Assembly (NCBI RefSeq): GCF_058153355.1 | Contig: NZ_CM177019.1 | Length of the DNA stretch: 64,000 bases | Reading direction: 5' to 3' (one strand) | Shown: positions 15,211 through 34,692 of the stretch, in pieces | Position numbering within the stretch: the first letter of the stretch is position 1 | How the letters are laid out: each line of letters begins with the position of its first letter | Translations under genes and position numbers: made by a program | Notes under the pieces: generated by a model | What the model was told of the DNA's origin: nothing | Databases searched by the model: none | What the model saw: only the letters and a program-made list of their open reading frames with translations

Positions 15211-16149
15211 TTAATTACGCAGCAGCGTTAAAATATCAACGTCCAGGTCTAATTCACGGAAAGCCTGACGCAGATAATCTTCGTTAACACGCTCACCTTT
15301 ACCATGAGCCGTCATGGCGGCAAGGCGAAGCGAATGATTCAGAATGCGAAGCGCACCGGGTTTCTGTGCAATTTGCTGTAACAACTCCAGTTCTTTTTCG
15401 CCGTTAATATGCCAGGCATCCGCAATAGCTTTTACATCGGCTTTTTTGGTTTTATTAATTGCAGTGGGCTTTGCAATACGGGAAAACAGACGGGCAAATT
15501 CAACCGTTCTGTTGCCCCCCGTCATATTTGAATAAACGCGGTGATTGCCCATCAGCACAAGGCCAGTGCGGGTTGATTCCTGTAACAGGCGGAGTTCTTC
15601 CAGAGCTTCAGCACCAAGATGATCAGCTTCGTCGATGATAACCAGCCCCTGTGTACCTTCAAGGCGGCGTCGCAGGGCGCGGGAGAGCGGCCCTTTACGG
15701 CGTGGTGCGTCATTCATTCCCAGCTCAAACGCCAGTTCAGTAAGACATTCCAGAACGCTGGCACAGGATGGCGTAATGGTGATCATCCAGACATTGTTAT
15801 TGGTGCGGCGATATTCACGGGCCGCTTCGGTTTTGCCCACACCAGGATTGCCACATACAACAGCAATACTTTCAGTCAGGCTGGCAAAACGCATACTTGT
15901 CCAGATTTGTTTTACCGTCTGCGTTTCCACAAAGCGGGGCGGTTCCGGTAGTTCTGCGACTGCATGATATTTTTCCAACCAGCGTTGCAGTATTTGTGCA
16001 ACACGTTCGTTATCCCCGTTGTACTTATCATTGATAAAACTACTGATAGTCCCGGTAGAAAGTCCGCTCTCAAGGGCAATTTGTTTAAAGGTGGTTTCTT
16101 CATTTTCTACAAGGGTGCGCAGTCCTGCGCGAATATCTGAAATATTCAT
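15211..16149 (-). CDS. B: MuB, AAA+ ATP-dependent target DNA activator
   Basis: 312-aa ORF MNISDIRAGLRTLVENEETTFKQIALESGLSTGTISSFINDKYNGDNERV... with Walker A GNPGVGKT and Walker B VIIDEADHL. It matches my recall of MuB. Confidence 0.95.
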   Translation of the reverse strand: MNISDIRAGLRTLVENEETTFKQIALESGLSTGTISSFINDKYNGDNERVAQILQRWLEKYHAVAELPEPPRFVETQTVKQIWTSMRFASLTESIAVVCGNPGVGKTEAAREYRRTNNNVWMITITPSCASVLECLTELAFELGMNDAPRRKGPLSRALRRRLEGTQGLVIIDEADHLGAEALEELRLLQESTRTGLVLMGNHRVYSNMTGGNRTVEFARLFSRIAKPTAINKTKKADVKAIADAWHINGEKELELLQQIAQKPGALRILNHSLRLAAMTAHGKGERVNEDYLRQAFRELDLDVDILTLLRN

Positions 16150-16187
16150 CTGAATAACCTCGTAATTAAATTTTGTTAAAACGTTAA

Positions 16188-18179
16188 TTAAATGACTTTT
16201 TTACGTCTGTTCTGTTCCAGAATATCCAGCGAATGATTCAGATATTCATCACGCTCAGTTTCGTATTCATCATCACGCTCCTGATTCTTCACCCGTTCCG
16301 TATTACCGGAAGGCCGGAAAATGCTTACAATTCGTGATTCTGGTGCTTCAGGTTCGGCTATCTGCGGCAGCAGCTCTGCCACTTCCAGTGCATCCATTTG
16401 TTTCTGTGCCTTAATCGCTGCTTTCGTCGCAGATTTCAGTTGTTTCTGGCGGCGGCGATATTCACGGCCTGCCGCAGCATCATTAAACGCAACAGGTGCC
16501 AGACATTCCGCTTCACAGATAAACCGACCGTCCAGGGTGTAGCAATAAACCGTGCTGTGTAACTGCTGTGGATCAAATCTGACCACAACTTTTTTCACTC
16601 CGGCATTCATTAACGCCATGTTGTAATAAACGTTTTTCGCGCCTTTAAGGGAGCCGCCAACTTTAAGCGCGAACTCGCCTTTACGTGAAACGTTCACCGC
16701 CTCGGCAGGCAGTAACAGCATCCGTTTTTGCTCTTCGGTAGGCTTACGCACAATCGTTCTGGCGTATTCACGCTCAAAAACGTCATCAAACGAAAGTTTG
16801 CCCCCGCACATTTCTGTTTCTCGGCCTGTTCTGGCATTGAACATCGCCACACCTTCGGCAAGGGTTTTCAGAAACAGCTCTGCATCAACAGCGCGGTCGC
16901 CATAGTTATCAGGTTTTGCCTGCGGATTAGGCCCCGTATATGCGCCAGCCAGTGCCGGATGTTTATCAACGTATTCCTCAAGGCCACCAACACCGAAAGC
17001 ACGTTCTACAGGTTTTGCCTGGCCCCAGCCTTTACCGGCAACAACGCTTGTCCAGTGCATGGTCGCCCCCATCAGTAAAAACAGCCCCTTTGGATCGTCC
17101 TCTTTCACCTTAAAGCGGTAGCGATTGGGCGCGCCCCCCGTCAGCCATTTATTCGCAGCACCACGGGTGTTATCAATGGTGATGTGAAAATCCTCCGGGA
17201 TGCCGTAGCGTGTCACTACATCCATGAACGAGAGGCGAATTGAATCGATGTTCTCGCTAACATCGCAGCGCCAGCCCAGAATTTTTCGGGTTTTCACATC
17301 CTGCCAGAACCATGTTTTCGGGCGGATCACATCACCGTTAAACCAGCGTACAAAGACGTTATGCAGATAACCGTCGCCGTTGATCCACTGCATGGCGTCC
17401 AGGTGTTCCACAGTTCGTTGCTGTGCCGGTATCAGATGCATCAGTGCATGTTCACCTTCACGGCAGGCAACAACCATTGCCCCGTCCAGTTGCTGAATCC
17501 GGCGAAATGCCGTGGCTCGGGAGGGAATACTCCAGCCATGCTCGCGGGCTGCCAGTTCCAGACGCTCATAACATTTGCGGAAGGCGGGTTTTTCCGGTCG
17601 CAGATAATCTGCAATCAGAAACTGCCAGGCATCCTCGTCAAATTCACTTTTGTGAACATTGCGACGGGATGCTCCACGTCCATCAACAAGTGCAGCCGCC
17701 CAGTCAGGCTTCGCAAACTTCTGTACCTGGTAATACTTGTCCCGCAAAGTGGATGCGCTGACCTGGTAATGCCCTGCAACGGTCGCAAAAGCCGTTTTCG
17801 TTGAAATCCCCTGGTTCAGCATTTCGTCTGCAGCCTGAACCGCAGGCAACCATTTTTCAGCAAGTCTGCGCTGGGAATCGCTGGCGTTATCCCATTTGCT
17901 CCACAGTGCCTCACGATCATAATCATGGGCTTCCAGCGTGGGGCGGGCGATTTCAAAATACCCCTGACTTGTTTCAATCTCTCCTTGTCTCAGCAATAAC
18001 GCCGCTTTCGCTTCAACAGGTAAAGAGTTCGCATTGTATTCAATTGCTTTACCACCTTTGACACCTGCTCTAGTGCGGTTTTGCCATCCTTGCTTTTTAG
18101 CAACATAAATCACACCAGCCGATGTTTTCGGCAAACCAGGAAGATTCGCACACTCTTTCGGTGATACCCAAAGTTCCAT
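16188..18179 (-). CDS. A: MuA DDE transposase
   Basis: The track ORF (666 aa) is trimmed to [48 protein letters not shown]... (663 aa, the MuA length I recall). Confidence 0.95.
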
Positions 18180-18180
18180 G

Positions 18181-18408
18181 TTATTCACCTGCTTGATATC
18201 GGCTAGGCCAGATTACTTCCGGTTTAGTTTCTAAGGCGTTAGCAATAATCTGCTCACCCTTTGGCCAGTGTCGTTCTAGCGCATTAGCTAATGTAGTTGG
18301 CGCATAACCGAACTGCCGGGAAAGAGCTGATAAAGAGAGCTTTCTTTTCTTAAGTCCCGCAATCACATCCGCTCGATGCCAATCACGGGCCTTTTCGTTG
18401 GAACACAT
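18181..18408 (-). CDS. ner: Mu Ner, Cro-like negative regulator of early transcription
   Basis: 75-aa [55 protein letters not shown]... matching my recall of Ner. Confidence 0.93.
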
Positions 18409-18577
18409 TTAAAAACCCTCCTAAGTTTTGTAATCTATAAAGTTAGCAATTTAACTAAGTGTAAAAACTTAGCTAGCTTGCTAAAAAGATAATTACTGAA
18501 AAGCTTTTTGTAAAGTTACTTTTTAGTAAATTTCTTTGATTACTGATTAATGCATTGATAAATAAGGGGTTTAAATT
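18409..18577. promoter_or_regulatory. Mu c-ner divergent control region: operators O1-O3 / transposition enhancer (IAS), with Pe and Pc promoters
   Basis: AT-rich 169-bp gap between divergent ner and c. Inverted copies of the repressor-site motif I recall (CTTTT-Py-AGTAA) are seen at 18492-18503 (attactgaaaag) and 18519-18530 (ctttttagtaaa). Confidence 0.8.
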
Positions 18578-19168
18578 TTGAAAAGTAACTTTATAGAAAA
18601 AGACGATACTGAAAAGTCAATTTGGTGTTCGCCGCAAGAAATTATGGCTGCTGATGGTATGCCTGGATCTGTTGCTGGTGTTCACTATCGAGCAAATGTT
18701 CAAGGCTGGACGAAGCGAAAAAAGGAAGGTGTCAAGGGGGGGAAAGCTGTTGAATACGATGTGATGTCTATGCCCACCAAAGAACGAGAGCAAGTTATTG
18801 CGCACTTGGGGTTATCCACACCGGATACTGGTGTTCAAGCCAATGAGAAACAGGATTCTTCGGAACTGATAAACAAATTAACCACAACCTTAATCAATAT
18901 GATTGAAGAGCTGGAACCAGATGAAGCACGCAAGGCACTGAAACTTTTAAGTAAAGGGGGGTTGTTGGCGTTAATGCCTCTTGTATTTAATGAACAGAAA
19001 CTTTACAGCTTTATAGGATTTTCACAGCAAAGTATTCAGACGTTGATGATGTTAGATGCATTACCTGAAGAAAAACGCAAAGAGATTTTGTCAAAGTATG
19101 GGATTCATGAACAGGAAAGTGTTGTAGTACCTTCACAGGAACCACAGGAGGTAAAAAAAGCCGTATAA
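18578..19168 (+). CDS. c: Mu repressor c (Repc)
   Basis: 196-aa ORF with a TTG start: MKSNFIEK..TEKSIWCSPQEIMAADGMPGSVAGVHYRANVQGWTKRKKEGVKGGKAVEYDV... It matches my recall of Repc, and its N-terminus is paralogous to the MuA N-terminus in the same window. Confidence 0.95.
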   Translation: MKSNFIEKDDTEKSIWCSPQEIMAADGMPGSVAGVHYRANVQGWTKRKKEGVKGGKAVEYDVMSMPTKEREQVIAHLGLSTPDTGVQANEKQDSSELINKLTTTLINMIEELEPDEARKALKLLSKGGLLALMPLVFNEQKLYSFIGFSQQSIQTLMMLDALPEEKRKEILSKYGIHEQESVVVPSQEPQEVKKAV

Positions 19169-19332
19169 CAACCATGAACCAGCTAAAACATACTTCACCT
19201 CACATAATCACACATGTAACATACCTAAACGGCATAAGCTGATTTGTGATATGAGTCATTTGGTGACAGCCTGGTTGTTATCGGTTTTGAACGTTTTTTG
19301 AAGCTGTTATTGAAATGATTTGCAGTGTTTTT

Positions 19333-19506
19333 GTTTTTCGTATTTTGAATGAAACAAAAGCAATTTTTTACTATCTTTCGCGTTTCATTGATTAACGACT
19401 AAAATTTGCGCTACAGGCTTGCAAGCCCCACCAAATCTAATCCCATCAGATCCCGAATAATCCAATGTCCTCCCGGTTTTTTTCGTACTTCAAGTGAATC
19501 AATACA
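19333..19506 (-). repeat. Mu attL: MuA end-binding sites L1 (about 19477-19506), L2 (about 19374-19395) and L3 (about 19333-19356)
   Basis: Three copies of a related motif are seen: ttttcgtacttcaagtgaatca (L1), tttcgcgtttcattgattaa (L2) and tttcgtattttgaatgaaaca (L3). The terminal ...TACA at 19506 is the complement of the Mu 5'-TGTA end. Confidence 0.85.
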
Positions 19507-19511
19507 CCGGG
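19507..19511. repeat. Presumed 5-bp Mu target-site duplication copy (CCGGG)
   Basis: These are the first five host bases after the Mu end. The sequence fits the preferred Mu target pentamer C-Y-S-R-G (recall). The second copy would lie at the right end, outside the window, so the duplication is unverified. Confidence 0.5.
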
Positions 19512-20503: not shown

Positions 20504-21379
20504 ATGGACTTTTTTACGTTATTTTCGCCAGATGGGGCCATGCTGGAAACAAACGTGGTATGTATCGTTATCGCGTTGATGTTTCTTTATACCTTTGTGG
20601 GGATATGCGCGGGATTTGGTGGCGGTTTAACCACCATGCCACTCGTCACGTTAATGCTCCCCGTAAAAATGGCAACACCACTTTCGGTAATTGTCGGCAC
20701 CGCAACCGCCTTGTACGCCACCTGGCTATCACGCAAAGAAACGGATTGGCGCTCGGCAATGGTGCTGATTATTTTCTCATTTTTGGGAATACCCGTCGGT
20801 TTATATGCGCTGTCATATTTACCCGACCATTTTATGAAAGTGGGCTTAGGTGGATTTCTTATCCTCTACTCCTTTTACAGCATGTTTATTCCTCGCTTGC
20901 CGATTTATGACCGTAACTGGATCGCCGCACCTATCGGCGCAGTAGCTGGCGCATTAGGCGCGGCGTTCTCAACCAACGGGCCGCCGATGGTTATCTACGG
21001 GATGCTGCGTAACTTAGGTCCGGCGGCATTTCGCGGCACTCTGAACGCTTTCTTCACCGCAAACAACATCGCGGTGATCGGCGGGCTGGCGACCAGCGGA
21101 ATTTTGACTGTTTCTATCTTTAAACTGGTGCTGTTTTGTATTCCCACCATGATCCTCGGTTCACTGATTGGACAATATGTGCATAAACGCATTTCGGTCA
21201 AAGTGTTTCGTGTGATGGTCTTTTTATTGTTGATTGCCTCCGGTTCTATGTTGATAAAAGGTGCGTTGGGAATTCCCGCCGCTGCCGCACTTCTGCCTCC
21301 GTTTACCTTGTTAGTTATACTGCAACTGGCATTTGGTAAAAAAGTGGCGGCAATCCGCCGGGCTGAAGAAAGTAAATAA
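20504..21379 (+). CDS. TSUP (TauE/SafE) family anion permease
   Basis: 291-aa polytopic membrane protein with the Gly-rich motif GICAGFGGGLTTMPL and an internal repeat (second half ...APIGAVAGALGAAFSTNGPPMV). AGGAAA lies upstream of the ATG. Confidence 0.8.
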   Translation: MDFFTLFSPDGAMLETNVVCIVIALMFLYTFVGICAGFGGGLTTMPLVTLMLPVKMATPLSVIVGTATALYATWLSRKETDWRSAMVLIIFSFLGIPVGLYALSYLPDHFMKVGLGGFLILYSFYSMFIPRLPIYDRNWIAAPIGAVAGALGAAFSTNGPPMVIYGMLRNLGPAAFRGTLNAFFTANNIAVIGGLATSGILTVSIFKLVLFCIPTMILGSLIGQYVHKRISVKVFRVMVFLLLIASGSMLIKGALGIPAAAALLPPFTLLVILQLAFGKKVAAIRRAEESK

Positions 21380-24993: not shown

Positions 24994-26397
24994 ATGTCTG
25001 ACCATAATCCACTGACATTAAAACTGAATCTGCGGGAAAAAATCGCTTATGGCATGGGCGACGTCGGTTCGAATTTAATGCTTAGCATCGGCACTCTGTA
25101 TCTCCTCAAATTTTATACCGATGAATTAGGGATGCCTGCTTACTATGGCGGGATTATCTTTCTGGTGGCGAAATTCTTTACCGCGTTTACCGATATGCTC
25201 ACCGGATTTTTACTCGACTCGCGGAAAAATATTGGGCCTAAAGGCAAATTTCGTCCCTTTATTTTATATGCAGCGGTTCCGGCGGCGTTAATTGCAACGC
25301 TCCAGTTTATCGCCACCACTTTTAGTTTGCCGATTAAAACGACGATTGCCACCGCGCTGTTTATGATGTTTGGACTTTCATACAGTCTGATGAACTGCTC
25401 GTATGGCGCGATGATCCCAGCAATTACCAAAAACCCCAATGAGCGCGCGCAGCTTGCGGCTTACCGCCAGGGTGGTGCAACCATAGGGCTATTGATTTGT
25501 ACCGTAGCATTTATTCCATTGCAGTCGCTTTTTTCTGACTCCACTGTCGGTTATGCCTGCGCGGCACTGATGTTCTCCATTGGTGGCTTTATTTTTATGA
25601 TGCTGTGCTACAGAGGCGTCAAAGAGCATTATGTGGACACGACGCCAACCGGACATAAAGCCAGTATTCTCAAATCTTTTTGCGCGATATTTCGTAATCC
25701 GCCATTGCTGGTTTTATGCATTGCTAACCTGTGTACCCTGGCGGCATTTAATATCAAACTGGCAATTCAGGTCTATTACACCCAGTATGTGCTGAATGAT
25801 ATTAATTTATTGTCGTGGATGGGATTCTTCAGTATGGGATGCATCCTCATCGGCGTATTGCTGGTGCCATTAACTGTAAAATATTTTGGTAAAAAACAGG
25901 TTTATTTAGCTGGCATGGTGCTGTGGGCGGTGGGGGATATCCTGAATTATTTCTGGGGCAGTAACTCTTTCACTTTCGTCATGTTCTCTTGTGTCGCCTT
26001 TTTTGGTACGGCCTTTGTAAACAGCCTGAACTGGGCGCTGGTACCGGATACCGTAGATTATGGTGAATGGAAAACAGGTATACGTGCCGAAGGTTCTGTT
26101 TATACCGGTTATACCTTCTTTCGTAAAATTTCAGCCGCACTTGCTGGCTTCTTGCCAGGCATTATGCTGACGCAAATCGGTTATGTTCCCAACATCGCGC
26201 AAAGCGATGCAACATTACAGGGTTTGCGTCAGCTCATTTTTATTTGGCCTTGTGCGCTGGCGATAATTGCTGCATTGACGATGGGATTCTTTTACACGCT
26301 CAATGAAAAACGTTTTGCGATGATTATTGAGGAAGTTAACCAACGCAAAAATAAAGAAATTAAGACAGAAGAAAAAACGGCTTCCGTAACGTTATAA
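24994..26397 (+). CDS. yihO: GPH-family sulfoquinovose importer YihO
   Basis: Start chosen at the ATG at 24994 (AAGGAG 5 nt upstream), giving 467 aa. It shares long identical blocks with YihP (LYLLKFYTD, GKFRPFILYA, MNCSYGAM.PAITKNPNERA). Confidence 0.9.
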   Translation: MSDHNPLTLKLNLREKIAYGMGDVGSNLMLSIGTLYLLKFYTDELGMPAYYGGIIFLVAKFFTAFTDMLTGFLLDSRKNIGPKGKFRPFILYAAVPAALIATLQFIATTFSLPIKTTIATALFMMFGLSYSLMNCSYGAMIPAITKNPNERAQLAAYRQGGATIGLLICTVAFIPLQSLFSDSTVGYACAALMFSIGGFIFMMLCYRGVKEHYVDTTPTGHKASILKSFCAIFRNPPLLVLCIANLCTLAAFNIKLAIQVYYTQYVLNDINLLSWMGFFSMGCILIGVLLVPLTVKYFGKKQVYLAGMVLWAVGDILNYFWGSNSFTFVMFSCVAFFGTAFVNSLNWALVPDTVDYGEWKTGIRAEGSVYTGYTFFRKISAALAGFLPGIMLTQIGYVPNIAQSDATLQGLRQLIFIWPCALAIIAALTMGFFYTLNEKRFAMIIEEVNQRKNKEIKTEEKTASVTL

Positions 26398-26463
26398 AAA
26401 CAATAGCCGCTATGACCATCTACAGGGATGGCGGCCTTCCTACATATAAAAAATGGATTTAAT

Positions 26464-27156
26464 ATGAAAAAGTTAAATGCAATAATTTTATTATCCTCTC
26501 TGACTTCCGCATCGGTATTCGCAGGCGCATACGTCGAAAACAGGGAGGCATATAATCTCGCCTCCGATCAGGGCGAGGTTATGCTACGTGTGGGTTATAA
26601 CTTCGATATGGGCGCGGGTATCATGTTAACCAATACCTACAACTTTCAGCGAGAAGATGAACTAAAACATGGATATAACGAAATCGAAGGTTGGTATCCT
26701 TTATTTAAACCAACCGATAAATTAACCATCCAGCCCGGTGGCTTAATTAATGATAAGAGCGCCGGTTCCGGTGGTGCTGTTTATCTGGATGTTAACTACA
26801 AATTTGCCCCGTGGTTTAACCTGACGGTACGCAACCGTTTTAACCATAATAACTACAGCACAACCGATTTAAACGGTGATCTGGATAATAATGACAGCTA
26901 CGAGATTGGTAACTACTGGAACTTTATTATTACCGATAAGTTCTCATATACCTTTGAACCGCATTATTTTTATAATATTAATGATTTCAACAGCAGCAAT
27001 GGCACCAAGCATCACTGGGAAATCACTAACACCTTCCGTTACCGAATTAATGAGCACTGGCTGCCCTATATTGAATTGCGCTGGTTAGACCGCAACGTCG
27101 AGCCGTACCACCGCGAGCAAAACCAGATCCGTATCGGGACGAAGTATTTCTTCTGA
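26464..27156 (+). CDS. ompL: Outer membrane porin OmpL
   Basis: Start chosen at MKKLNAIILLSSLTSASVFA (signal peptide), giving 230 aa. It has the terminal aromatic ...GTKYFF typical of a beta-barrel. Confidence 0.9.
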   Translation: MKKLNAIILLSSLTSASVFAGAYVENREAYNLASDQGEVMLRVGYNFDMGAGIMLTNTYNFQREDELKHGYNEIEGWYPLFKPTDKLTIQPGGLINDKSAGSGGAVYLDVNYKFAPWFNLTVRNRFNHNNYSTTDLNGDLDNNDSYEIGNYWNFIITDKFSYTFEPHYFYNINDFNSSNGTKHHWEITNTFRYRINEHWLPYIELRWLDRNVEPYHREQNQIRIGTKYFF

Positions 27157-27165
27157 TGTAAAAAT

Positions 27166-27199
27166 GTAAAAAGCCGCTGATATTTAAGCGGCTTTTTAC
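27166..27199 (+). terminator. Rho-independent terminator after ompL
   Basis: AAAAAGCCGCT-gatattta-AGCGGCTTTTT hairpin with a T-run, seen directly in the sequence. Confidence 0.8.
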
Positions 27200-27336
27200 A
27201 CAGATATTCACAATATAAATAACTCCCCATAATTATATAACCGCGTTGATTATAAAATATTCCTCGTCCTCTCTATCAAAGTCATTGACTACCAGGTAAG
27301 ATCTTTTCCACTGCAACACTCACAAGGAATGAGAAA

Positions 27337-28185
27337 ATGGAAAAGAAATTTTTTATGGATTGGGATAATGAAATCCCGCAAGAAGAGTTTATTAACAATA
27401 TTTTAGCCGATGAAGACCTGCCTAAAATCCGCTCTCTGATTATTGGTCGTTGGGGGGAGTGCTGGGATGAGGAAAGTTGCCAACCAATAATCGACATGTT
27501 TGTTGAACATGCCGAACGCTTTGCTCATCTCGAATCCCTATTTATCGGCGATATGGAAAGCGAAGAGTGTGAAATTTCGTGGATAAAACAAGGGGATTAT
27601 TCTCGTCTGTATGCTGCGCTGCCGAACCTGAAAAAGCTGACAATTAAAGGTACTCAGGGCCTGGAACTGGGAGAAATCGCCCATGACAAACTGGAGCATC
27701 TGGAAATTATCTCTGGCGGTACGCCGTGTGACGTGTTCGCCTCATTGCAAAATGCCCAACTGCCTGCGTTAAAAACACTTATCGTTTATATTGGCGTTGA
27801 GAATTATGGTTTTGATGCATCGCTGGATATCGTAATGAAGCTGGCGTCGAAATCCCTCTTCCCGAGCCTGACGCATCTTGGCCTGGTGAACAGCGAAGAG
27901 CAAAACGAAATCGTCCGCCGCGTGCTGGAAAGCGACATTCTGCCGCAACTGGAAGTGCTGGCACTCTCCTGCGGTACGCTTACCGACGAAGGTGCAGAGC
28001 ATCTTCTCAAACATGCCGATCGCCTTAGCCATCTGAAACTGCTGGATTTGTACCATCATTACCTGACAGAAGAGATGCAGAAAAAACTGCAAAAAACACT
28101 GACATGTACTCTCGAATTATCAGAAGCGCTAACGCCTGAAGTCTATGATGACGAAATTTATATGCATGCGATGTATACCGAATAA
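27337..28185 (+). CDS. Leucine-rich-repeat (RNI-like) protein; STM4015-family-like
   Basis: 282 aa with periodic L..L.L/I units (LESLFIGD, LKKLTIKG, LEHLEIISG, LKTLIVYIG, LTHLGLVNS, LEVLALSCGTLTDEGAEHLL, LKLLDLYHHYL). AAGGAA lies 7 nt upstream. The family name is from memory of NCBI family naming. Confidence 0.75.
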   Translation: MEKKFFMDWDNEIPQEEFINNILADEDLPKIRSLIIGRWGECWDEESCQPIIDMFVEHAERFAHLESLFIGDMESEECEISWIKQGDYSRLYAALPNLKKLTIKGTQGLELGEIAHDKLEHLEIISGGTPCDVFASLQNAQLPALKTLIVYIGVENYGFDASLDIVMKLASKSLFPSLTHLGLVNSEEQNEIVRRVLESDILPQLEVLALSCGTLTDEGAEHLLKHADRLSHLKLLDLYHHYLTEEMQKKLQKTLTCTLELSEALTPEVYDDEIYMHAMYTE

Positions 28186-29232
28186 ATGACATTTATTGGG
28201 AGAGAGTCATCTCTCCCATTATTTATCACAGAAAAGGAATTCTTCGTGATTACGCTAATTGGTCATCCTGAAAGCAAACGCACATTTTATTTTTGCCAGG
28301 CAGCGTCACGCTTACAGGAACATATCAACGTAGTGAGCTATGATCAAGCACTTACCCTGCTCTTAAATAAAGGCATGGTAAAAATCGATCCCCCCTTACA
28401 TCAGGAAACAGATATTCGCTTAATTAATACGGTTAGCCAAAACTATATTACTTTTTTACAAAAAATGGCTACCAGAAGGGAGATCCGTTTTATTAACTCA
28501 CCAGAAGGTATTATTCATCTTCTGGATAAACGCCACTGTAAGCAACGATTAGTCGAACACGCGATCCCGACACCGCCAATATTAGCGGATGATATCCGTA
28601 GCTACGATCAACTGATCGCCTGTATGCGCAGCGAAAAGGTTTATCGCGTGTTTATTAAGCCGAATTTCGGATCAGGGGCCGCCGGGGTGCTGGCTTTGAG
28701 TCTACATCCCGGCGATAACCGTCAGGCGCTTTATTGCGCCATCCAGGTTGCAGGTGACAGGCTGGTGAACAGTAAACATATTATCCGCTATGAAAACAGC
28801 GGTGATATTACGTTGATTGTGAATGCTATTTTACAACAAGACAATATTATCGAACGCTGGCTGGCAAAAGCCAGAGTGGGCAATAAAAGCTACGATTTAC
28901 GCATAGTGTACGTTAATGGTGAAATCGTCTGGCGGGTTGTCAGAACATCATCACAGCCGATCACCAATTTGCATCTGCAAAATGAAGCCATTCGTTTTGC
29001 CGATCTTAATTTACCCGCAGAAAAAGTGGCTGACATTGACACGCTTTGTCTCAACGCCATGAAACTCTACCCGGACGTACACATTGCCGGGCTTGATGTA
29101 TTACTCACGCAAAACTTAACCCCCTATATTATCGAAATTAACGGCCAGGGCGATCTTATTTATCAGGACACCTGCGAACAAAATATGATTTATCAACGCC
29201 AGATTCAGGTAATGAGAGAACACCATGTATAA
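28186..29232 (+). CDS. ATP-grasp (RimK/GshB-like) ligase; STM4014-family-like
   Basis: Motifs VFIKPNFGSGAAGV, YDLRIVYVNGEIV and AGLDVLLTQNLTPYIIEINGQGDL are present. The ATG abuts the upstream stop (TAAATG). An alternative GTG start at 28246 has AAGGAA upstream. Confidence 0.75.
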   Translation: MTFIGRESSLPLFITEKEFFVITLIGHPESKRTFYFCQAASRLQEHINVVSYDQALTLLLNKGMVKIDPPLHQETDIRLINTVSQNYITFLQKMATRREIRFINSPEGIIHLLDKRHCKQRLVEHAIPTPPILADDIRSYDQLIACMRSEKVYRVFIKPNFGSGAAGVLALSLHPGDNRQALYCAIQVAGDRLVNSKHIIRYENSGDITLIVNAILQQDNIIERWLAKARVGNKSYDLRIVYVNGEIVWRVVRTSSQPITNLHLQNEAIRFADLNLPAEKVADIDTLCLNAMKLYPDVHIAGLDVLLTQNLTPYIIEINGQGDLIYQDTCEQNMIYQRQIQVMREHHV

Positions 29233-30097
29233 CGTAACAGACGAAGTCCCGGAAAATACCCGCACGGCAATCCATTCCTGCGATGGCGAAATCAATATGA
29301 ATGATTTGATAGCCAGGGAGGCGAATGTTCTGTTTGTAGTGCTTGATTCCCTGCGTTTTGATATTGCGTTTCAGGAACAAGAGGCGGGCAATACGCCGAA
29401 CATTAACCGCTATGGTCGCTGGATAAAGTGCGAAGCCGCTGGCAATTTTACCTGGCCTTCGCATCATTCGATGTTTTCTGGTTTTATGCCTAAGCCGCTG
29501 GAAGCCGCACCGGGCCATTCAATGCTCTTTTTTCCCAAAGATATTGGCTTAGGGCGTTTAGGGCCAAAAAATGCATTCGCATTCAGCGAAGAGACGTGGA
29601 TTAAAGGGCTGGAAAACAAAGGTTACCGCACTATCTGCGTGGGTGGCATCTCCTTTTTTAATAACCGCTCAGGGATGGGAAAAGTGTTCCCGGCGATGTT
29701 TAAAGAGAGTTACTGGTATCCTAATTTCTCCTGCACGGTGAAAGAGAGCATGGATAATCAGCTCACCTTAATTAACAAAAAGGTGAACGCTGAACAGCCG
29801 CTGATGATGTATATCAATATCGACACCATTCATTATCCGAATCATTTTTATATTGAAAATGCCAAACCTGGCGATACGGTAGAAACTCACGCCGCTGCCC
29901 TGCATTATATTGATGCCAGAATCGAAAAACTTTTCGATATCTTTCGGCAAACCGGGCGGGAAACGTTAGTTATTCTCTGTTCCGATCATGGCACCTGCTA
30001 CGGGGAAGACGGTAAATATTTCCACAGTTTTAACCATCCGATTGTGAATACCGTACCCTATTTTCACTTTGTGTTAGACGGCAAAGACCATGAATAA
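29225..30097 (+). CDS. Alkaline-phosphatase-superfamily hydrolase (nucleotide pyrophosphatase/phosphodiesterase-like); STM4013-family-like
   Basis: VVLDSLRFD, FTWPSHHSMFSG and LCSDHGTCYGEDG resemble the NPP/AlkP metal-ligand and nucleophile motifs. The gene overlaps the upstream gene by 8 nt. Confidence 0.7.
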   Translation: MYNVTDEVPENTRTAIHSCDGEINMNDLIAREANVLFVVLDSLRFDIAFQEQEAGNTPNINRYGRWIKCEAAGNFTWPSHHSMFSGFMPKPLEAAPGHSMLFFPKDIGLGRLGPKNAFAFSEETWIKGLENKGYRTICVGGISFFNNRSGMGKVFPAMFKESYWYPNFSCTVKESMDNQLTLINKKVNAEQPLMMYINIDTIHYPNHFYIENAKPGDTVETHAAALHYIDARIEKLFDIFRQTGRETLVILCSDHGTCYGEDGKYFHSFNHPIVNTVPYFHFVLDGKDHE

Positions 30098-31232
30098 TGA
30101 ATCGATTTATCAGCAATATATGTACAGTTACCCGCATAAGACCGCTTATCGGGAATTAAACAATATTGCTTTTGCGGATGTGAAATCGCGTATTTACGAG
30201 CATAAAACACATCTCTATATTCATATGCCTTTTTGCCAGAGCCGCTGCGGGTTTTGTAATCTCTTTACCTGCACGGGGGCAGACAATGCCTTTATCGACA
30301 ACTACATAGAAGCAATTATTATCCAGGCCCGGCAAATGCAACTTGCGCCTGTAGACTGGGCCAGTTTTACCATTGGCGGCGGTACGCCACTACTGCTTAA
30401 TACCGGGCAACTGTCACGGTTGTTTCGCGGGGTGTTTGACGAATTACAGGTCGATGCGCAGATTTTTAAGGCAATTGAAACATCGCCTTCCGATACCACC
30501 GCCGAAAAGGTCGCGTTATTGCGCCAGCTTGCGGTAAGCCGCGGCAGGGGTAATTTCCCGATAATCAATATTGATATTATTTACGGTATTCCTGGTCAAA
30601 CAGCCGCAAGTTTAATGGCGTCGCTTAATCAGGCATTAGATTATCAGCCTGACGAACTTTTTTTGTACCCGCTGTATAACATGCCGCGCCAGCCGGATAT
30701 GTATAGCCTCTATATTGAAGCCCGCGATCGCTTATTGCATGAAGGTTATACGCAAACGTCAATGCGCCGTTTTGTGCGGGTGAATAATGAGTCGACGGCT
30801 GAAAGTTGTGGCTTTGAAAATTCGCTGGCGCTTGGCGCGGGCGGGCGCAGTTATCTTGGCAATTTACATTACTGCACGCCGTGGTCGCAAAACCAGCCCG
30901 CATCGCGGCAAATTGTCACGGATTTTATCGCCCGGCCAGATAAGACCCAGATTCACCACGGCTATGTACTTTCACAAGCAGAAATGAAGCGGCGTTTTAT
31001 TATCAAGAATCTCTTTTTCTATAAGGGGCTTTCGTTACGGGATTATCAGCATCAGTTCTTCTCTGAGGTATTAAGCGATTTTCCCCTGCTGGGAGATTTC
31101 ATCAAACAAGATTACTGCCACCAGCAGGATAATCGTATTCTGCTCACCGCGCAGGGTTTAGCGCTTTCGGACCAGCTTGGCCCGCTGTTTATCTCCCCGG
31201 AAGTTCGCAGGCTGGAGACGCATAAACGATGA
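30090..31232 (+). CDS. HemN-like radical SAM protein; STM4012-family-like
   Basis: HMPFCQSRCGFCNLF (CxxxCxxC), IGGGTPLLL and NIDIIYGIPGQT parallel the HemN motifs found in the same window. It overlaps the upstream gene by 8 nt. Confidence 0.8.
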   Translation: MNNESIYQQYMYSYPHKTAYRELNNIAFADVKSRIYEHKTHLYIHMPFCQSRCGFCNLFTCTGADNAFIDNYIEAIIIQARQMQLAPVDWASFTIGGGTPLLLNTGQLSRLFRGVFDELQVDAQIFKAIETSPSDTTAEKVALLRQLAVSRGRGNFPIINIDIIYGIPGQTAASLMASLNQALDYQPDELFLYPLYNMPRQPDMYSLYIEARDRLLHEGYTQTSMRRFVRVNNESTAESCGFENSLALGAGGRSYLGNLHYCTPWSQNQPASRQIVTDFIARPDKTQIHHGYVLSQAEMKRRFIIKNLFFYKGLSLRDYQHQFFSEVLSDFPLLGDFIKQDYCHQQDNRILLTAQGLALSDQLGPLFISPEVRRLETHKR

Positions 31233-32086
31233 CGCTCAAGCAGATCCAGACGCTGATTTATCGCGGCGAGATAAAGTCGTGTAATTATCGCTGTGGTTAT
31301 TGCCCTTTTCATAAACAAGACCGCAATGATAAACAGCAGGATGAAGTGGCATTATGGCGCATGGTTGAACATTTACCGGCGCTGGGTTCACCATTAAATG
31401 TATTTATTACGCCCTACGGCGAAGCATTGCGTTATCGTTATTATATGGCGGCGATGGCGGAAATCAGCCGCTATTCCCATGTGCAGGCGGTGGGTATTCA
31501 GACCAACGCCTCTTTTAATTTATCCACCTTAGTCGCGACTTTTCAGCACTCTCAGGGCGATTTAGCAAAGCTGCGGCTGTGGTGTTCGTTTCATCCTTCC
31601 CAGGTCAGTAAAGAAGTTTTCCTTAAACAGTTACTGGCAATTAAGGACACGGGGATTACCTGTTCTGTGGGGGCCGTCGCCAGCGTAGCCGACTATGACG
31701 AATTACAGTGGTTACGCGCGCATCTTCCTCCCGATATCTATTTCTGGCTAAACGCCAATGAGCGCGATAAAAGGCCCACCAGCGACGAAAGAAATAGCCA
31801 GTTTCAGTTGCTGGACCCGCTTTATTATCTGGAAACCAGCCTCTGGCCTGCCAATGTCGAGTTTTGTCTGGGCGGCAAAAAGAGCGTGTTTATGAATGCT
31901 GATGGCGATCTCTTCGCCTGTAATATCAGCAAAATTAAGATTGGCAATTTATATCAACAGCAACTTTCATCTCCGGCTTGTATGTCCAGGCACTGTCACT
32001 GTTATCTGGCTTATCACCTGCGTGAGGATATTCCGGCCCTCTCACAATTTGATGCTGAACGCTGCTTTCGGATCTTCTCGTTATGA
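31229..32086 (+). CDS. Small radical SAM protein; STM4011-family-like
   Basis: N-terminal SCNYRCGYCPF (CxxxCxxC) and a Cys-rich C-terminal region. ATGA overlap with the upstream gene. Confidence 0.75.
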   Translation: MTLKQIQTLIYRGEIKSCNYRCGYCPFHKQDRNDKQQDEVALWRMVEHLPALGSPLNVFITPYGEALRYRYYMAAMAEISRYSHVQAVGIQTNASFNLSTLVATFQHSQGDLAKLRLWCSFHPSQVSKEVFLKQLLAIKDTGITCSVGAVASVADYDELQWLRAHLPPDIYFWLNANERDKRPTSDERNSQFQLLDPLYYLETSLWPANVEFCLGGKKSVFMNADGDLFACNISKIKIGNLYQQQLSSPACMSRHCHCYLAYHLREDIPALSQFDAERCFRIFSL

Positions 32087-32778
32087 TCTGGCGGTTAATC
32101 GCGCTCGATTTAGACGGCACATTGCTGAACAGCAAGAAGATGATTTCCCCTGCGTCTGTTTCGGCACTGCAAAGCGCACAACAGGCAGGTGTGAAGATTA
32201 TCCTTGCCACCGGACGTTCGCACAGCAAAGCCCTGCCTTATTACCAACAATTGCAGTTAACCGAGCCGATGATTTGCTGTAACGGCAGCTATCTTTATCA
32301 TCCGCGCCAGCGGCAAATATTGCGTCCGCTGGCGCTTGATATCCACAAGGTGGAACAACTACGACTCTGGTTTTCACAACAAATATTGCAGCCAAATATT
32401 TATACGTACGATGATTTTGTTTTGCAGATTAGCCTGATACACCGCAAGACTTCGTTATTGCGCCAGACAGAGGAATTTGCCCGGCAAGAATTATCGCTGG
32501 CCTGTAGCTGGTCCTGGCATCATCAACTGGATATTACTCAGGCGGGGTGCGATAAAGGCAAAAGTCTGCTCTGGTATGCCCAGCAGCAAAATATCGCGCT
32601 GGATGAAATTATTGCCTTTGGCGACAACGATAATGATGCGGGGATGCTGCGGATGGTAGGCAAAGGGATTGCGATGGGCAATGGCAGTTCGCTGGCAAAA
32701 GTCAGTGCTGACCGCGTTATTGGTCACAACAACACAGATGCTATTGCGGATTTTCTTGATGCGCAGGGTTTCAGATGA
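32083..32778 (+). CDS. Cof-type HAD-IIB phosphatase
   Basis: Motif I (IALDLDGTLLN), ILATGRS, KGKSL and FGDNDNDAGML are present. ATGA overlap with the upstream gene. Confidence 0.8.
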   Translation: MIWRLIALDLDGTLLNSKKMISPASVSALQSAQQAGVKIILATGRSHSKALPYYQQLQLTEPMICCNGSYLYHPRQRQILRPLALDIHKVEQLRLWFSQQILQPNIYTYDDFVLQISLIHRKTSLLRQTEEFARQELSLACSWSWHHQLDITQAGCDKGKSLLWYAQQQNIALDEIIAFGDNDNDAGMLRMVGKGIAMGNGSSLAKVSADRVIGHNNTDAIADFLDAQGFR

Positions 32779-32779
32779 C

Positions 32780-32816
32780 GCCTGATGCGATGCTGGCGCA
32801 TCTTATCAGGCCTACA
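32780..32816. repeat. REP (repetitive extragenic palindromic) element
   Basis: gcctgatgcgatgctggcgcatcttatcaggcctac is a typical REP palindrome. Confidence 0.8.
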
Positions 32817-32821
32817 AAAGC

Positions 32822-32852
32822 AAAAAACCTGCCATCGCTGGCAGGTTTTTTA
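32822..32852. terminator. Bidirectional rho-independent terminator between the HAD gene and typA
   Basis: AAAAAACCTGCCA-tcgc-TGGCAGGTTTTTT has an A-run and a T-run flanking a 9-bp stem. Confidence 0.85.
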
Positions 32853-32868
32853 TGACTAAAAAACGAAA

Positions 32869-34692
32869 TTAATCGTCTTTCGGTGCGCGGTTGGCGCGAC
32901 GACGATCGTTTTCCGTCAGGTGACGTTTACGAATACGGATAGAGGTCGGAGTCACTTCTACCAGTTCGTCATCATCGATGAACTCCAGAGCTTGTTCCAG
33001 AGTCATGCGGATAGGCGGAACCAGAACAACGGCTTCGTCAGTACCGGAAGCACGCATGTTGGTCAGTTTCTTACCGGTCAGACAGTTTACAGTCAGGTCG
33101 TTAGAGCGGCTATGAATACCGATAATCTGACCTTCGTAAACTTCTGCACCGTGACCGAGGAACAGCTTACCGCGATCCTGCAGACCGAACAGCGCGAACG
33201 CGACCGCTTTACCCTGACCGTTAGAGATCAGTACACCGTTCTGACGCTGTCCCACTTCGCCCGGACGTACGTCGTCGTAGTGGCTGAAGGTGGAGTACAG
33301 CAGACCAGTACCGGAAGTCATGGTCATGAACTCAGAACGGAAGCCAATCAGACCACGGCTTGGGATCACGTAGTCGAGACGTACGCGGCCTTTACCGTCT
33401 GGATTCATGTTTTTCAGGTCGCCTTTACGTTCGCCCAGCGCCTGCATCACAGAACCCTGATGCTGTTCTTCAACGTCCAGAGTCACGTTTTCATACGGCT
33501 CTTGTTTACGACCGTCGATTTCACGGAAGATAACTTTCGGACGGGATACCGCCAGTTCGAAACCTTCACGACGCATGTTTTCGATCAGAACAGACAGGTG
33601 CAGTTCGCCACGACCAGAAACGCGGAACGCATCGGCGTCTTCAGTTTCTTCTACGCGCAGCGCAACGTTGTGTACCAGTTCTTTGTTCAGACGATCCAGG
33701 ATCTGACGAGACGTTACGAACTTACCTTCTTTACCGCAGAACGGCGAGGTGTTAACGCAGAAGAACATAGAAACGGTCGGCTCATCAACGGAGAGTGCCG
33801 GCAGCGCTTCAACGTTTTGCGTGTCGCAAACGGTGTCAGAAATGTTCAGTTCGCCCAGGCCCGTGATCGCCACGATATCGCCAGCTTCCGCCAGATCGGT
33901 TTCGATACGTTCCAGACCGAGGTGGCCCAGCACTTTACCGACTTTCGCGTTGCGGGTTTTGCCTTCGCTATCGATGATAGTAACTTGCTGGTTCGGCTTC
34001 ACTTTACCGCGCTTGATGCGGCCAATGCCGATAACGCCAACATAGCTGTTGTAATCGAGCTGAGAAATCTGCATCTGGAACGGACCGTCAAGGTCAACGT
34101 CCGGCGCAGGAACGTGGTCAACAATTGCCTGATACAGCGGGGTCATGTCTTCCGCCATATCTTCGTGGTCCAGACCGGCGATACCGTTCAGCGCAGAAGC
34201 GTAAACGATCGGGAAGTCCAGCTGCTCGTCGGTCGCGTCGAGGTTAACGAACAGGTCGAATACCTGATCCACAACCCAGTCAGGACGCGCGCCAGGGCGG
34301 TCAACTTTGTTGATAACAACAATCGGCTTCAGGCCATAAGCAAACGCTTTTTTGGTTACGAAGCGCGTTTGCGGCATCGGGCCGTCAAATGCGTCAACCA
34401 CCAGCAGCACTGAGTCTACCATGGACATTACACGTTCAACTTCACCACCGAAGTCGGCGTGCCCCGGGGTATCAACGATGTTGATACGGTAATCATTCCA
34501 TTTGATAGCGGTGTTTTTCGCGAGGATGGTAATCCCACGCTCTTTCTCCAAATCGTTGGAGTCCATCACGCGCTCTTGGGTTTCGGCACGAGAGTCGAAC
34601 GTACCAGATTGTTGGAGCAGCTTGTCTACCAGGGTGGTTTTACCATGGTCTACGTGCGCGATGATGGCGATATTACGCAATTTTTCGATCAC
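32869..34692 (-). CDS. typA: Ribosome-dependent translational GTPase TypA/BipA
   Basis: 607-aa [35 protein letters not shown]... with G1-G4 GTPase motifs, matching E. coli BipA. Confidence 0.97.

What the first reader, a model, noticed from the sequence alone, without database searches (positions are those of the whole stretch)
27157..32868. Variable locus: the cassette occupies the ompL-typA interval where K-12 carries yihN-yihM-yihL
Gene order on both sides is exactly that of K-12. As I recall, K-12 has yihL (GntR-type regulator), yihM and yihN (MFS transporter) between typA and ompL. None of those is present here, and a completely different six-gene block is.

By eye, without computation, the block looks more AT-rich than the neighbouring typA and glnA. 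There is no integrase, transposase, tRNA or direct repeat at its edges; only a terminator and a REP element are present. This looks like an allelic replacement island at a fixed chromosomal slot, which is the kind of place where accessory or defence-type cargo accumulates.
Basis: partly seen in the sequence, partly recalled or inferred. Interest (0 to 1): 0.55.

Follow-up and report, generated by a model that had tools for sequence, protein, structure and literature searches.

The report
Ancestral radical-SAM operon beside typA
The six genes between ompL and typA are the uncharacterised STM4010-STM4015 operon that Salmonella carries at the same spot, so this is an old resident that most E. coli (including K-12) have swapped for yihLMN or deleted, not an incoming defence island, and this window's copy is probably broken.

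Summary
K-12 has typA-yihL-yihM-yihN-ompL; this window has six co-oriented, overlapping genes there, bounded only by a terminator, a REP element and the typA terminator.

The slot has at least three states in 5,426 complete E. coli genomes: yihLMN in 4,238, this cassette in 157, empty on the ompL background in 216. But the cassette is the older occupant. Salmonella and Superficieibacter carry it in the same ompL-cassette-typA order. Its synonymous divergence matches its flanks, and dN/dS is 0.08-0.23. It matches no PADLOC defence model and has no mobility genes.

All six proteins match named but uncharacterised NCBIfam families. The five-gene core is colinear in Clostridia, Deinococcus and Streptomyces. 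In most Clostridia the sixth gene (a HAD phosphatase) is fused to the STM4011 radical SAM enzyme.

New lead: every STM4015 leucine-rich-repeat protein examined ends in a C-terminal glutamate, and the adjacent ATP-grasp enzyme folds most like ArgX/LysX/RimK. Those enzymes ligate onto a partner protein's C-terminal Glu. I infer a scaffold-protein-tethered radical-SAM pathway; this is untested.

The window's STM4012 has a private 96-bp in-frame deletion that removes the conserved RxSxGxQ core.

The parts
26464..27156 (+). ompL (KdgM-family porin), the left anchor of the slot. The longest ORF starts at 26428; the start matching the 230-aa RefSeq gene is 26464.
   Evidence: Pfam KdgM, E 4.7e-85. 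Annotated ompL in L001 and K-12. Two stretches are only 80-85% identical to three other E. coli alleles.
27164..27201 (.). Bidirectional terminator-like hairpin just after ompL. The left boundary of the cassette allele lies 9 nt after the ompL stop.
   Evidence: 14-nt perfect arms with flanking A/T runs. Alleles diverge after 'TGAtgtaaaaat'.
27337..28185 (+). STM4015-family leucine-rich-repeat protein (282 aa) with an invariant C-terminal ...T-E. Proposed scaffold or carrier protein.
   Evidence: NF038076, 323 bits against a cutoff of 275. AF2 model with pLDDT 92 is an LRR solenoid. PDB 2RA8 matches at 44% identity, TM 0.88. All 82 homologues examined end in [LIM]TE; the Deinococcus and Streptomyces paralogues end in GE.
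28246..29232 (+). STM4014-family ATP-grasp ligase. The ORF is open from 28186; 28246 is the start used in RefSeq homologues.
   Evidence: NF038074, 335 bits against a cutoff of 175. Weak hits to MptN, RimK, LysX and CofF. Pfam ATPgrasp_ST. AF2 model with pLDDT 92; best PDB folds are ArgX-LysW 3VPB, LysX/ArgX 5K2M and RimK-RpsF 5ZK6.
29225..30097 (+). STM4013/SEN3800 alkaline-phosphatase-superfamily hydrolase, with Thr at the nucleophile position.
   Evidence: NF038075, 350 bits against a cutoff of 250. Pfam Sulfatase and Phosphodiest. Conserved D41, N74-F75-T76-x-P78-S79-H80 and D254-H255.
30090..31232 (+). STM4012 HemN-like radical SAM protein. In this window it is 380 aa instead of 412.
   Evidence: NF006067, 425 bits against a cutoff of 380, in two stretches. 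The full-length copy aligns to HemN 1OLT, E 1.3e-26. CxxxCxxC and GGGTP are conserved.
30544..30547 (+). Junction of a 96-bp in-frame deletion in STM4012 (aa 152-183 of the intact protein).
   Evidence: Alignment to L001 and L086-L088. The deletion removes S153, G155, Q157, S158, F159, E163, L164, R169, H171, A179 and L180, all at least 95% conserved. None of 156 complete E. coli genomes shares it.
31229..32086 (+). STM4011 radical SAM protein with a C-terminal Cys-rich (SPASM/twitch-like) region.
   Evidence: NF038073, 299 bits against a cutoff of 200. Conserved C18/C22/C25 plus C213, C231, C251, C256 and C258. Pfam SPASM hit in a Clostridium homologue.
32083..32778 (+). Cof-type HAD-IIB phosphatase (the STM4010 position). 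Its start overlaps the STM4011 stop by 4 nt.
   Evidence: Pfam Hydrolase_3, E 2.9e-55. TIGR00099, 183 bits against a cutoff of 137. The same domain is fused to STM4011 in 41 of 55 Clostridial homologues.
32780..32816 (.). REP element at the right end of the cassette. The same REP is retained in the empty allele.
   Evidence: Sequence read. Junction alignment. Sub-threshold Rfam match to naRNA4.
32821..32852 (-). typA terminator hairpin. This is the first sequence shared by all slot alleles on the right side.
   Evidence: Rfam STnc370 at 32816-32884, 53.2 bits against a gathering score of 54.
32869..34692 (-). typA/bipA, the right anchor of the slot.
   Evidence: Pfam GTP_EFTU and BipA_C. Annotated typA in all compared loci.

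Best explanation
The interval is one allele of a three-state polymorphic slot at the 3' end of typA.

Shown:
- The allele here is the STM4015-STM4014-STM4013-STM4012-STM4011-Cof operon, six genes with overlapping or abutting reading frames.
- It occupies the same ompL-typA position in Salmonella and Superficieibacter, and it has diverged in step with its flanks under purifying selection.
- So it predates the Escherichia-Salmonella split. Most E. coli have since replaced it with yihLMN or deleted it.

Shown:
- The five-gene core is a self-contained module, kept in the same gene order across bacterial phyla.
- The HAD phosphatase belongs to the module, because in most Clostridia it is fused to STM4011.

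Inferred mechanism:
- The leucine-rich-repeat protein STM4015 serves as a scaffold or carrier.
- The LysX/ArgX/RimK-like ATP-grasp enzyme STM4014 activates its invariant C-terminal glutamate as an acyl-phosphate and ligates an amine (an amino acid or other metabolite) onto it.
- The tethered group or tail is then remodelled by the HemN-like and SPASM-like radical SAM enzymes.
- The Thr-nucleophile alkaline-phosphatase-family enzyme and the HAD phosphatase handle the phosphoester steps.

Inferred: in this particular window the pathway is probably dead. STM4012 has lost 32 residues of its radical-SAM core.
For: Identity: all six proteins exceed the curated NCBIfam cutoffs. RefSeq annotates the same six genes in 157 E. 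coli genomes.

Ancestry:
- Gene order is identical in Salmonella L085 and Superficieibacter L005.
- The cassette lies next to typA in the E. marmotae-named L090 and in L092, despite different left flanks.
- Window versus ST648: cassette dS 0.10-0.26, against 0.14-0.26 for yihQ/P/O, ompL, glnA and glnG; dN/dS 0.08-0.23.
- Window versus Salmonella: dS is saturated, as for yihP/yihO/ompL.
- The empty allele retains the cassette's REP.

Module:
- 55 of 80 species-representative loci have all five core genes in the same order.
- 7 loci have only the STM4015+STM4014 pair.
- No other gene is conserved in the neighbourhood.
- The order is the same in Deinococcus and Streptomyces.
- STM4011 is fused to a HAD domain in 41 of 55 homologues.

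Mechanism:
- The terminal Glu is invariant in 82 of 82 homologues, and also in the distant GE-ending paralogues preceded by acidic residues and a Trp.
- The top fold matches of STM4014 are ArgX-LysW, LysX/ArgX-LysW and RimK-RpsF.
- Its only named sequence relatives are MptN, RimK, LysX and CofF, all ligases acting on a terminal glutamate.
- Catalytic motifs are conserved in STM4013, STM4012 and STM4011.

Defect.
Against: No experiment bears on the chemistry.
- The fold match to LysX/RimK is only modestly better than to D-Ala-D-Ala ligases (E 1e-15 to 1e-13 against 1e-12, TM about 0.6). The profile search of PDB sequences gave nothing significant.
- In the AF2 model the STM4015 tail is mostly ordered, and only the last two residues are lower-confidence. 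It is not a long flexible arm.
- The cluster has no amidase or protease to release a product.
- Cassette proteins are much more diverged from Salmonella (56-76% aa identity) than the flanks (85-98%). An older or separate origin of the two enterobacterial copies cannot be fully excluded while dS is saturated.
- About 815 E. coli genomes were not individually classified.
Confidence: 0.6

Rival explanations
1. The cassette is a horizontally acquired island that entered this lineage, and separately Salmonella, at a recombination-prone slot. K-12's yihLMN would then be the original content.
For: The block has lower GC than typA-glnG. Homologues at 45-56% identity are abundant in gut Clostridia, so an ancient transfer between phyla did happen. 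The slot clearly exchanges alleles.
Against: Exact position and gene order are the same in three genera. dS equals flank dS within Escherichia. yihLMN is equally AT-rich, at GC 0.450. The empty allele keeps the cassette's REP. There is no integrase, tRNA or flanking repeat. Plasmid and phage hits are chromosome-sized replicons, records of 100-560 kb typed non-mobilizable, or host fragments, so nothing points to a mobile vector.
Confidence: 0.1
2. The cassette is an anti-phage or innate-immunity-like system in which the LRR protein senses an invader and the enzymes are effectors.
For: LRR domains are sensors in NLR-type immunity, and Foldseek lists NLRC4 and NLRP3 LRRs among weak matches. The locus is variable. 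Some homologues carry an N-terminal WGR domain.
Against: None of the six proteins hits a PADLOC model. There is no nuclease, protease, pore-forming or NADase effector. The module is vertically stable for a whole genus and sits among housekeeping genes in Clostridia. It is under ordinary purifying selection.
Confidence: 0.05
3. The enzymes make or salvage a small phosphorylated metabolite or cofactor without any covalent role for STM4015. On this view the LRR protein is a regulator or assembly chaperone, and its conserved C-terminus is structural or a docking motif.
For: The ATP-grasp relatives MptN and CofF act on cofactor tails. The alkaline-phosphatase-family enzyme and the HAD phosphatase suggest phosphoester metabolites. 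There is no releasing amidase. The tail is largely ordered in the model.
Against: STM4015 and STM4014 are the most tightly linked pair, and they occur alone in 7 loci. A structural role does not explain why the very last residue stays Glu while the residue before it switches from T to G between phyla. The best fold matches are protein-C-terminus ligases.
Confidence: 0.25

Closest known systems
NCBIfam STM4011, STM4012, STM4013/SEN3800, STM4014 and STM4015 families (NF038073, NF006067, NF038075, NF038074, NF038076) in Salmonella Typhimurium LT2 numbering
   Same: All five core proteins score above the curated cutoffs. Gene order and chromosomal position are as in Salmonella.
   Different: These are names only ('hypoth_equivalog'). 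No function is attached. The three papers found merely list the genes in tables. The window's STM4012 carries a private 32-aa deletion.
Amino-group carrier protein systems: LysW with LysX/ArgX (lysine and arginine biosynthesis in Thermus and archaea, and AmCP-dependent secondary metabolism)
   Same: An ATP-grasp enzyme whose best structural matches are ArgX/LysX is encoded next to a protein whose last residue is an invariant Glu. In the Actinobacteria and Deinococcus paralogues the ending is ...W-R-x-V-A-x-G-E, preceded by acidic residues. From memory, LysW ends ...EDWGE.
   Different: The partner is a 282-aa LRR solenoid, not a 54-aa zinc-ribbon protein. There is no kinase, reductase, aminotransferase or deacylase. 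Instead there are two radical SAM enzymes, an alkaline-phosphatase-family enzyme and a HAD phosphatase. Ligation itself is untested.
RimK and ribosomal protein S6 (C-terminal poly-glutamylation)
   Same: RimK-RpsF (5ZK6) and RimK structures are among the top fold hits. The RimK-family HMM is a weak sequence hit. The substrate carboxylate is a protein's C-terminal Glu.
   Different: The score is far below the RimK family cutoff (38 against 143 bits). The partner is a dedicated co-encoded protein. Extra enzymes are present.
Radical SAM/SPASM maturation of a conserved C-terminal core (PQQ PqqA/PqqE, mycofactocin MftA/MftC)
   Same: A Cys-rich SPASM/twitch-like radical SAM enzyme is encoded with a protein whose conserved C-terminal motif contains Tyr and Glu.
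   Different: The 'precursor' is a large folded protein. There is no small-peptide ORF. No RRE/PqqD domain, protease or family-specific HMM hit was found.
HemN (oxygen-independent coproporphyrinogen III oxidase) and HemN-like class C radical SAM methyltransferases
   Same: STM4012 aligns with HemN 1OLT over residues 7-231 and with NocN 9P2U. It shares the CxxxCxxC, GGGTP and RxSxGxQ motifs.
   Different: It scores 82 bits against the 325-bit hemN cutoff. The genuine hemN lies elsewhere in the window's right flank.

Membership tests
STM4011-STM4015 conserved gene cassette (NCBIfam) | Each protein scores above the curated family cutoff. | tested here: met
   (bits against cutoff): STM4015 323 vs 275; STM4014 335 vs 175; STM4013 350 vs 250; STM4012 425 vs 380; STM4011 299 vs 200.
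STM4011-STM4015 conserved gene cassette (NCBIfam) | Colinear order 4015-4014-4013-4012-4011. | tested here: met
   Window. Salmonella. 55 of 80 species-representative loci. Deinococcus and Streptomyces.
Integrative genomic island / mobile element | Integrase or transposase, tRNA or other att site, flanking direct repeats. | tested here: not met
   No tRNA within 22 kb. Only chance-level repeats. The six ORFs are all enzymes or the LRR protein. The Mu prophage ending at 19506 is unrelated: the same junctions occur in genomes without it.
Known anti-phage defence systems (PADLOC-DB v2) | Any component matches a defence-system HMM. | tested here: not met
   Zero hits at E<=0.01 for all six proteins.
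LysW/LysX-type amino-group carrier system | LysX/ArgX-like ATP-grasp ligase. | tested here: inconclusive
   The top Foldseek hits are ArgX and LysX complexes (E 1e-15 to 1e-13, TM about 0.65). The LysX HMM scores 31 bits against a 276-bit cutoff. The PDB profile search found nothing significant.
LysW/LysX-type amino-group carrier system | Partner protein with a conserved C-terminal Glu. | tested here: met
   The terminal E is invariant in 82 of 82 homologues and in the distant GE-ending paralogues.
LysW/LysX-type amino-group carrier system | Small zinc-ribbon LysW fold, and downstream LysZ/Y/J/K-type enzymes. | tested here: not met
   STM4015 is a 282-aa LRR solenoid. No kinase, reductase, aminotransferase or deacylase is in the cassette.
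LysW/LysX-type amino-group carrier system | Isopeptide or peptide ligation onto the C-terminal Glu, demonstrated. | not testable with these tools
   This needs mass spectrometry or an in vitro assay.
Formylglycine sulfatase with an anaerobic sulfatase-maturing radical SAM enzyme | C/S-x-P-x-R signature at the nucleophile position. | tested here: not met
   The conserved motif is N-F-T76-W-P-S-H80. Thr takes the place of Cys/Ser and His the place of Arg.
RiPP-type radical SAM/SPASM system | Short precursor peptide gene, RRE domain and a protease. | tested here: not met
   No plausible small ORF lies in 27157-27336. No protease or PqqD-like domain was found. Only the SPASM-like Cys cluster is present.
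HemN coproporphyrinogen dehydrogenase | Score above the TIGR00538 cutoff. | tested here: not met
   81.9 bits against a cutoff of 324.95.

The most novel reading that the evidence does not exclude
The cassette encodes an undescribed kind of carrier-protein-dependent radical-SAM pathway. A leucine-rich-repeat protein's invariant C-terminal glutamate would be the covalent attachment point, loaded by a LysX/RimK-like ATP-grasp ligase. The group built or remodelled on it would be processed by a HemN-like radical SAM enzyme, a SPASM-like radical SAM enzyme and two phosphoesterases. The module is shared by Salmonella, some E. coli, gut Clostridia, Bacteroides, Deinococcus and Streptomyces.
Probability: 0.35. 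Interest if true: 0.7.

Novelty: new variant of a known kind. Interest (0 to 1): 0.42.

Why it matters
As a pangenome observation this is ordinary. It is one more slot where E. coli lineages differ, and here K-12 is the derived state rather than the reference.

The value lies in the cargo. It is a compact operon that is catalogued but functionally blank. It is conserved in Salmonella, in clinically important E. coli clones such as ST648, and in hundreds of species-representative genomes, mostly Lachnospiraceae and other Clostridia (many of them mouse-gut MAGs).

The invariant C-terminal Glu, next to a LysX/RimK-like ligase, gives a concrete and cheap experiment: mass spectrometry of STM4015 with and without STM4014. 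That could open up the function. A positive result would extend carrier-protein-tethered biosynthesis to a new scaffold fold and to radical-SAM chemistry.

The window's own copy also serves as a natural loss-of-function allele of STM4012.

Tried and rejected
- Sulfatase plus maturase idea. STM4013 hits Pfam Sulfatase, and a radical SAM enzyme sits next to it. Rejected because the nucleophile motif is T-W-P-S-H, not C/S-x-P-x-R.
- Defence island. Rejected on zero PADLOC hits and on the gene context.
- Mobile island. Rejected: no tRNA, integrase or repeats. The plasmid and phage protein hits are not evidence of a mobile vector: several 'plasmids' are chromosome-sized (0.9-11.8 Mb), the others (100-560 kb) are typed non-mobilizable, and the phage hits are 1.4-2.8 kb 'phage' fragments, a 156-kb Salmonella genome contig and a phage genome end.
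- Small precursor peptide upstream of STM4015. No credible ORF.
- A structured RNA in the intergenic regions. Only sub-threshold REP/naRNA4 and STnc370-like matches at the typA terminator.
- A functional link to the adjacent sulfoquinovose genes. Rejected because the module occurs without them in E. marmotae, in L092 and in all non-enterobacterial loci.

Dead ends:
The Salmonella and Escherichia loci had to be fetched through the look-up of encoding contigs.
- The paper I recalled on ATP-grasp amidoligases was not held under the id I tried.
- A profile search of the ATP-grasp family against PDB sequences gave only E>0.01 hits.

Full report
**What is there**

Between ompL (ends 27156) and typA (32869-34692, minus strand) lie six plus-strand ORFs:
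- 27337-28185
- 28186/28246-29232
- 29225-30097
- 30090-31232
- 31229-32086
- 32083-32778

Successive frames abut or overlap by 4-8 nt, so the six genes are laid out as an operon. Pfam and NCBIfam identify them as follows:
- an STM4015-family protein
- an STM4014-family ATP-grasp enzyme
- an STM4013/SEN3800 alkaline-phosphatase-superfamily hydrolase
- an STM4012 HemN-like radical SAM protein
- an STM4011 radical SAM protein
- a Cof-type HAD-IIB phosphatase

Every one of them scores above the curated NCBIfam cutoff.

The block is bounded on the left by a perfect 14-nt-arm hairpin at 27164-27201. On the right it is bounded by a REP element (about 32780-32816) and the typA terminator hairpin at 32821-32852.

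**Checking the observation**

There is no tRNA nearer than 55.5 kb. There are no meaningful flanking repeats and no mobility gene in the block.

The compositional claim is half true:
- The block has GC 0.459, against 0.531 for typA-glnG and 0.503 for the window.
- ompL (0.418) and yihO (0.445) are equally AT-rich or more so.
- The block is at the 10th percentile of same-size windows.
- K-12's yihLMN insert has GC 0.450, so composition marks neither allele as foreign.

**A three-state slot**

Among 5,426 complete E. coli genomes:
- 4,238 hold at least 80% of K-12's yihLMN interval.
- 157 hold this cassette.
- 216 have ompL and typA separated by about 100 nt.
- The remaining roughly 815 were not classified one by one. 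They include ST131-type genomes, where typA directly abuts a DeoR-family regulator of a different, B2-type sugar cluster.

That B2-type left flank also occurs with yihLMN (ATCC 25922). It occurs with the cassette in a genome whose STM4015 cluster NCBI names E. marmotae.

The junction alignment shows that alleles diverge 9 nt after the ompL stop and rejoin at the typA terminator. The empty allele is exactly ompL-TGAtgtaaaaat, followed by the same REP that ends the cassette, followed by the typA terminator. It therefore looks like a clean deletion of the cassette.

**Which allele is old**

Salmonella enterica (L085) has yihQ-yihP-yihO-ompL-STM4015...STM4011-Cof-typA-glnA-glnL in exactly the window's order. 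Superficieibacter electus has ompL-cassette-typA-glnA as well.

Synonymous divergence:

| Comparison | Cassette dS | Flank dS |
|---|---|---|
| Window vs ST648 E. coli | 0.10-0.26 | 0.14-0.26 (yihQ, yihP, yihO, ompL, glnA, glnG) |
| Window vs E. marmotae-type genome | 0.15-0.35 | 0.14-0.38 (typA, glnA, glnL) |
| Window vs Salmonella | saturated | saturated for yihP, yihO, ompL |

dN/dS within E. coli is 0.08-0.23. The cassette has therefore co-diverged with its surroundings under purifying selection. It is the older occupant, and yihLMN in K-12 is the replacement.

One caveat applies. Cassette proteins are only 56-76% identical to Salmonella's, against 85-98% for the flanks. With saturated dS, a deeper or separate origin cannot be strictly excluded.

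The window's 38-58 kb flank is 99.2% identical to the same small group of E. coli genomes that carry the closest cassette (98.5%).

**The cassette as a module**

An alignment of STM4015 homologues pulled 80 species-representative loci, almost all Lachnospiraceae or other Clostridia.
- 55 carry all five core genes in the same order.
- Most of the rest are cut by contig ends.
- 7 have only the STM4015+STM4014 pair.
- No other gene is conserved nearby.

In 41 of 55 of these genomes STM4011 is 478-594 aa long, because a Cof-like HAD domain is fused to its C-terminus. This shows that the sixth enterobacterial gene belongs to the system.

The same order, with two tandem STM4015 paralogues, occurs in Deinococcus and Streptomyces. 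Bacteroides finegoldii has a reduced form: WGR-LRR, ATP-grasp and the radical SAM-HAD fusion.

No PADLOC model matches any of the six proteins. Hits in the plasmid and phage collections give no sign of a mobile vector. Several 'plasmid' records are chromosome-sized replicons, the rest are typed non-mobilizable, and the phage hits are host fragments.

**How it may work (inference)**

STM4015 models confidently as a leucine-rich-repeat solenoid (pLDDT 92). Its only close solved relative is a function-less structural-genomics entry, 2RA8 from Bacteroides fragilis.

Its very last residue is Glu in all 82 homologues collected; these end in [L/I/M]-T-E. The distant Deinococcus and Streptomyces paralogues end ...W-R-x-V-A-x-G-E, preceded by acidic residues. 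So the terminal Glu survives while its neighbour changes.

The adjacent ATP-grasp enzyme also models confidently (pLDDT 92).
- Its best structural matches are ArgX-LysW, LysX/ArgX-LysW-gamma-AAA and RimK-RpsF.
- Its only named sequence relatives are MptN, RimK, LysX and CofF.
- By established knowledge of those families, all of these enzymes activate the carboxylate of a terminal glutamate.

I therefore propose that STM4014 loads something onto Glu282 of STM4015, and that the two radical SAM enzymes then act on the tethered group or tail. Supporting features:
- STM4012 has the HemN motifs CxxxCxxC, GGGTP and RxSxGxQ.
- STM4011 has CxxxCxxC plus five conserved C-terminal cysteines.
- STM4013 keeps the alkaline-phosphatase metal ligands and a Thr at the nucleophile position (N-F-T-W-P-S-H). 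It is not a formylglycine sulfatase.

Weak points:
- D-Ala-D-Ala ligases follow closely in the fold ranking.
- The tail is mostly ordered in the model.
- No releasing amidase is encoded.
- Nothing here has been tested experimentally.

**This window's copy**

STM4012 is 380 aa here, against 412 aa in every other copy examined. A 96-bp in-frame deletion at 30544-30547, between short similar sequences, removes residues 152-183.

The lost segment aligns to the RLSMGVQ...region of HemN 1OLT. It contains 11 residues that are at least 95% conserved in the family. None of the 156 complete E. coli genomes matching this stretch has the deletion. The pathway is probably inactive in this strain.

**Comparison with what is known, and verdict**

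The cassette is already named in NCBIfam and RefSeq, but no function is attached. The only three papers that mention the locus tags list them in tables, and two further literature searches found nothing relevant.

The variable-slot observation is correct but ordinary. The 'incoming accessory or defence island' reading is not supported.

The most useful result is a testable lead: an LRR protein with an invariant C-terminal Glu, paired with a LysX/RimK-like ligase and two radical SAM enzymes. That would be a new variant of carrier-protein or C-terminal-ligation chemistry.

Noticed in passing
window 15211-19506 (extending left, possibly to the window start): A Mu prophage end. The 23-nt Mu left-end sequence, recalled from memory, matches exactly at 19484-19506 (minus strand). 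A Mu repressor-like ORF lies at 18578-19168, MuA transposase at 16188-18188 and MuB at 15211-16149. Host sequence resumes at 19507, about 34 nt upstream of yihR. The phage therefore sits between yihS and yihR of the sulfoquinovose cluster.
   Followed up: partly
window 20504-21379: A TauE/SafE sulfite-exporter gene lies between yihR and yihQ. It is present in the cassette-bearing E. coli and in Salmonella, but absent from K-12, where yihR and yihQ are adjacent. The left flank is therefore not exactly K-12's.
   Followed up: partly
window 26464-27156 (ompL): The window's ompL has two stretches (about 26338-26487 and 26788-27087) that are only 80-85% identical to the alleles of K-12, Ecol_743 and the closest cassette-bearing genome, while neighbouring yihO is 98-99% identical to the latter (dS 0.58 against 0.06). 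This suggests a recombined or diversifying porin allele at the slot's edge.
   Followed up: partly
window 32816-32884 (minus strand): The typA 3' end and terminator match the Salmonella sRNA family STnc370 at 53.2 bits, just under the gathering score of 54. The adjacent REP gives a weak naRNA4 match.
   Followed up: no
window 28197-28218: A 9-bp-stem hairpin lies between the STM4015 stop and the likely STM4014 start at 28246. It could attenuate read-through, so that the LRR protein is made in excess over the enzymes. It is not conserved in Salmonella, where the gap is 12 nt.
   Followed up: no
L096 10948-11949 and L097 3228-4295: A DUF6745 protein is encoded on the opposite strand beside the cassette in both Deinococcus sp. 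QL22 and Streptomyces fungicidicus. Both of these loci also have two tandem STM4015 paralogues. DUF6745 may be an extra partner in those phyla.
   Followed up: no
L087 10910-11888: Another E. coli assembly has a 1-nt gap that shortens STM4014 to 321 aa, with the next gene no longer overlapping it. This suggests the cassette is also decaying independently in other strains.
   Followed up: no
L003 and L093 (E. coli B2 genomes), L090: B2-type genomes lack ompL-yihOPQ. In its place they carry a different cluster (DeoR regulator, sugar kinase, yihU, aldolase, alcohol dehydrogenase, two MFS transporters, epimerase) next to the same typA slot. The neighbouring sulfoquinovose region is therefore itself a second polymorphic locus.
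   Followed up: partly
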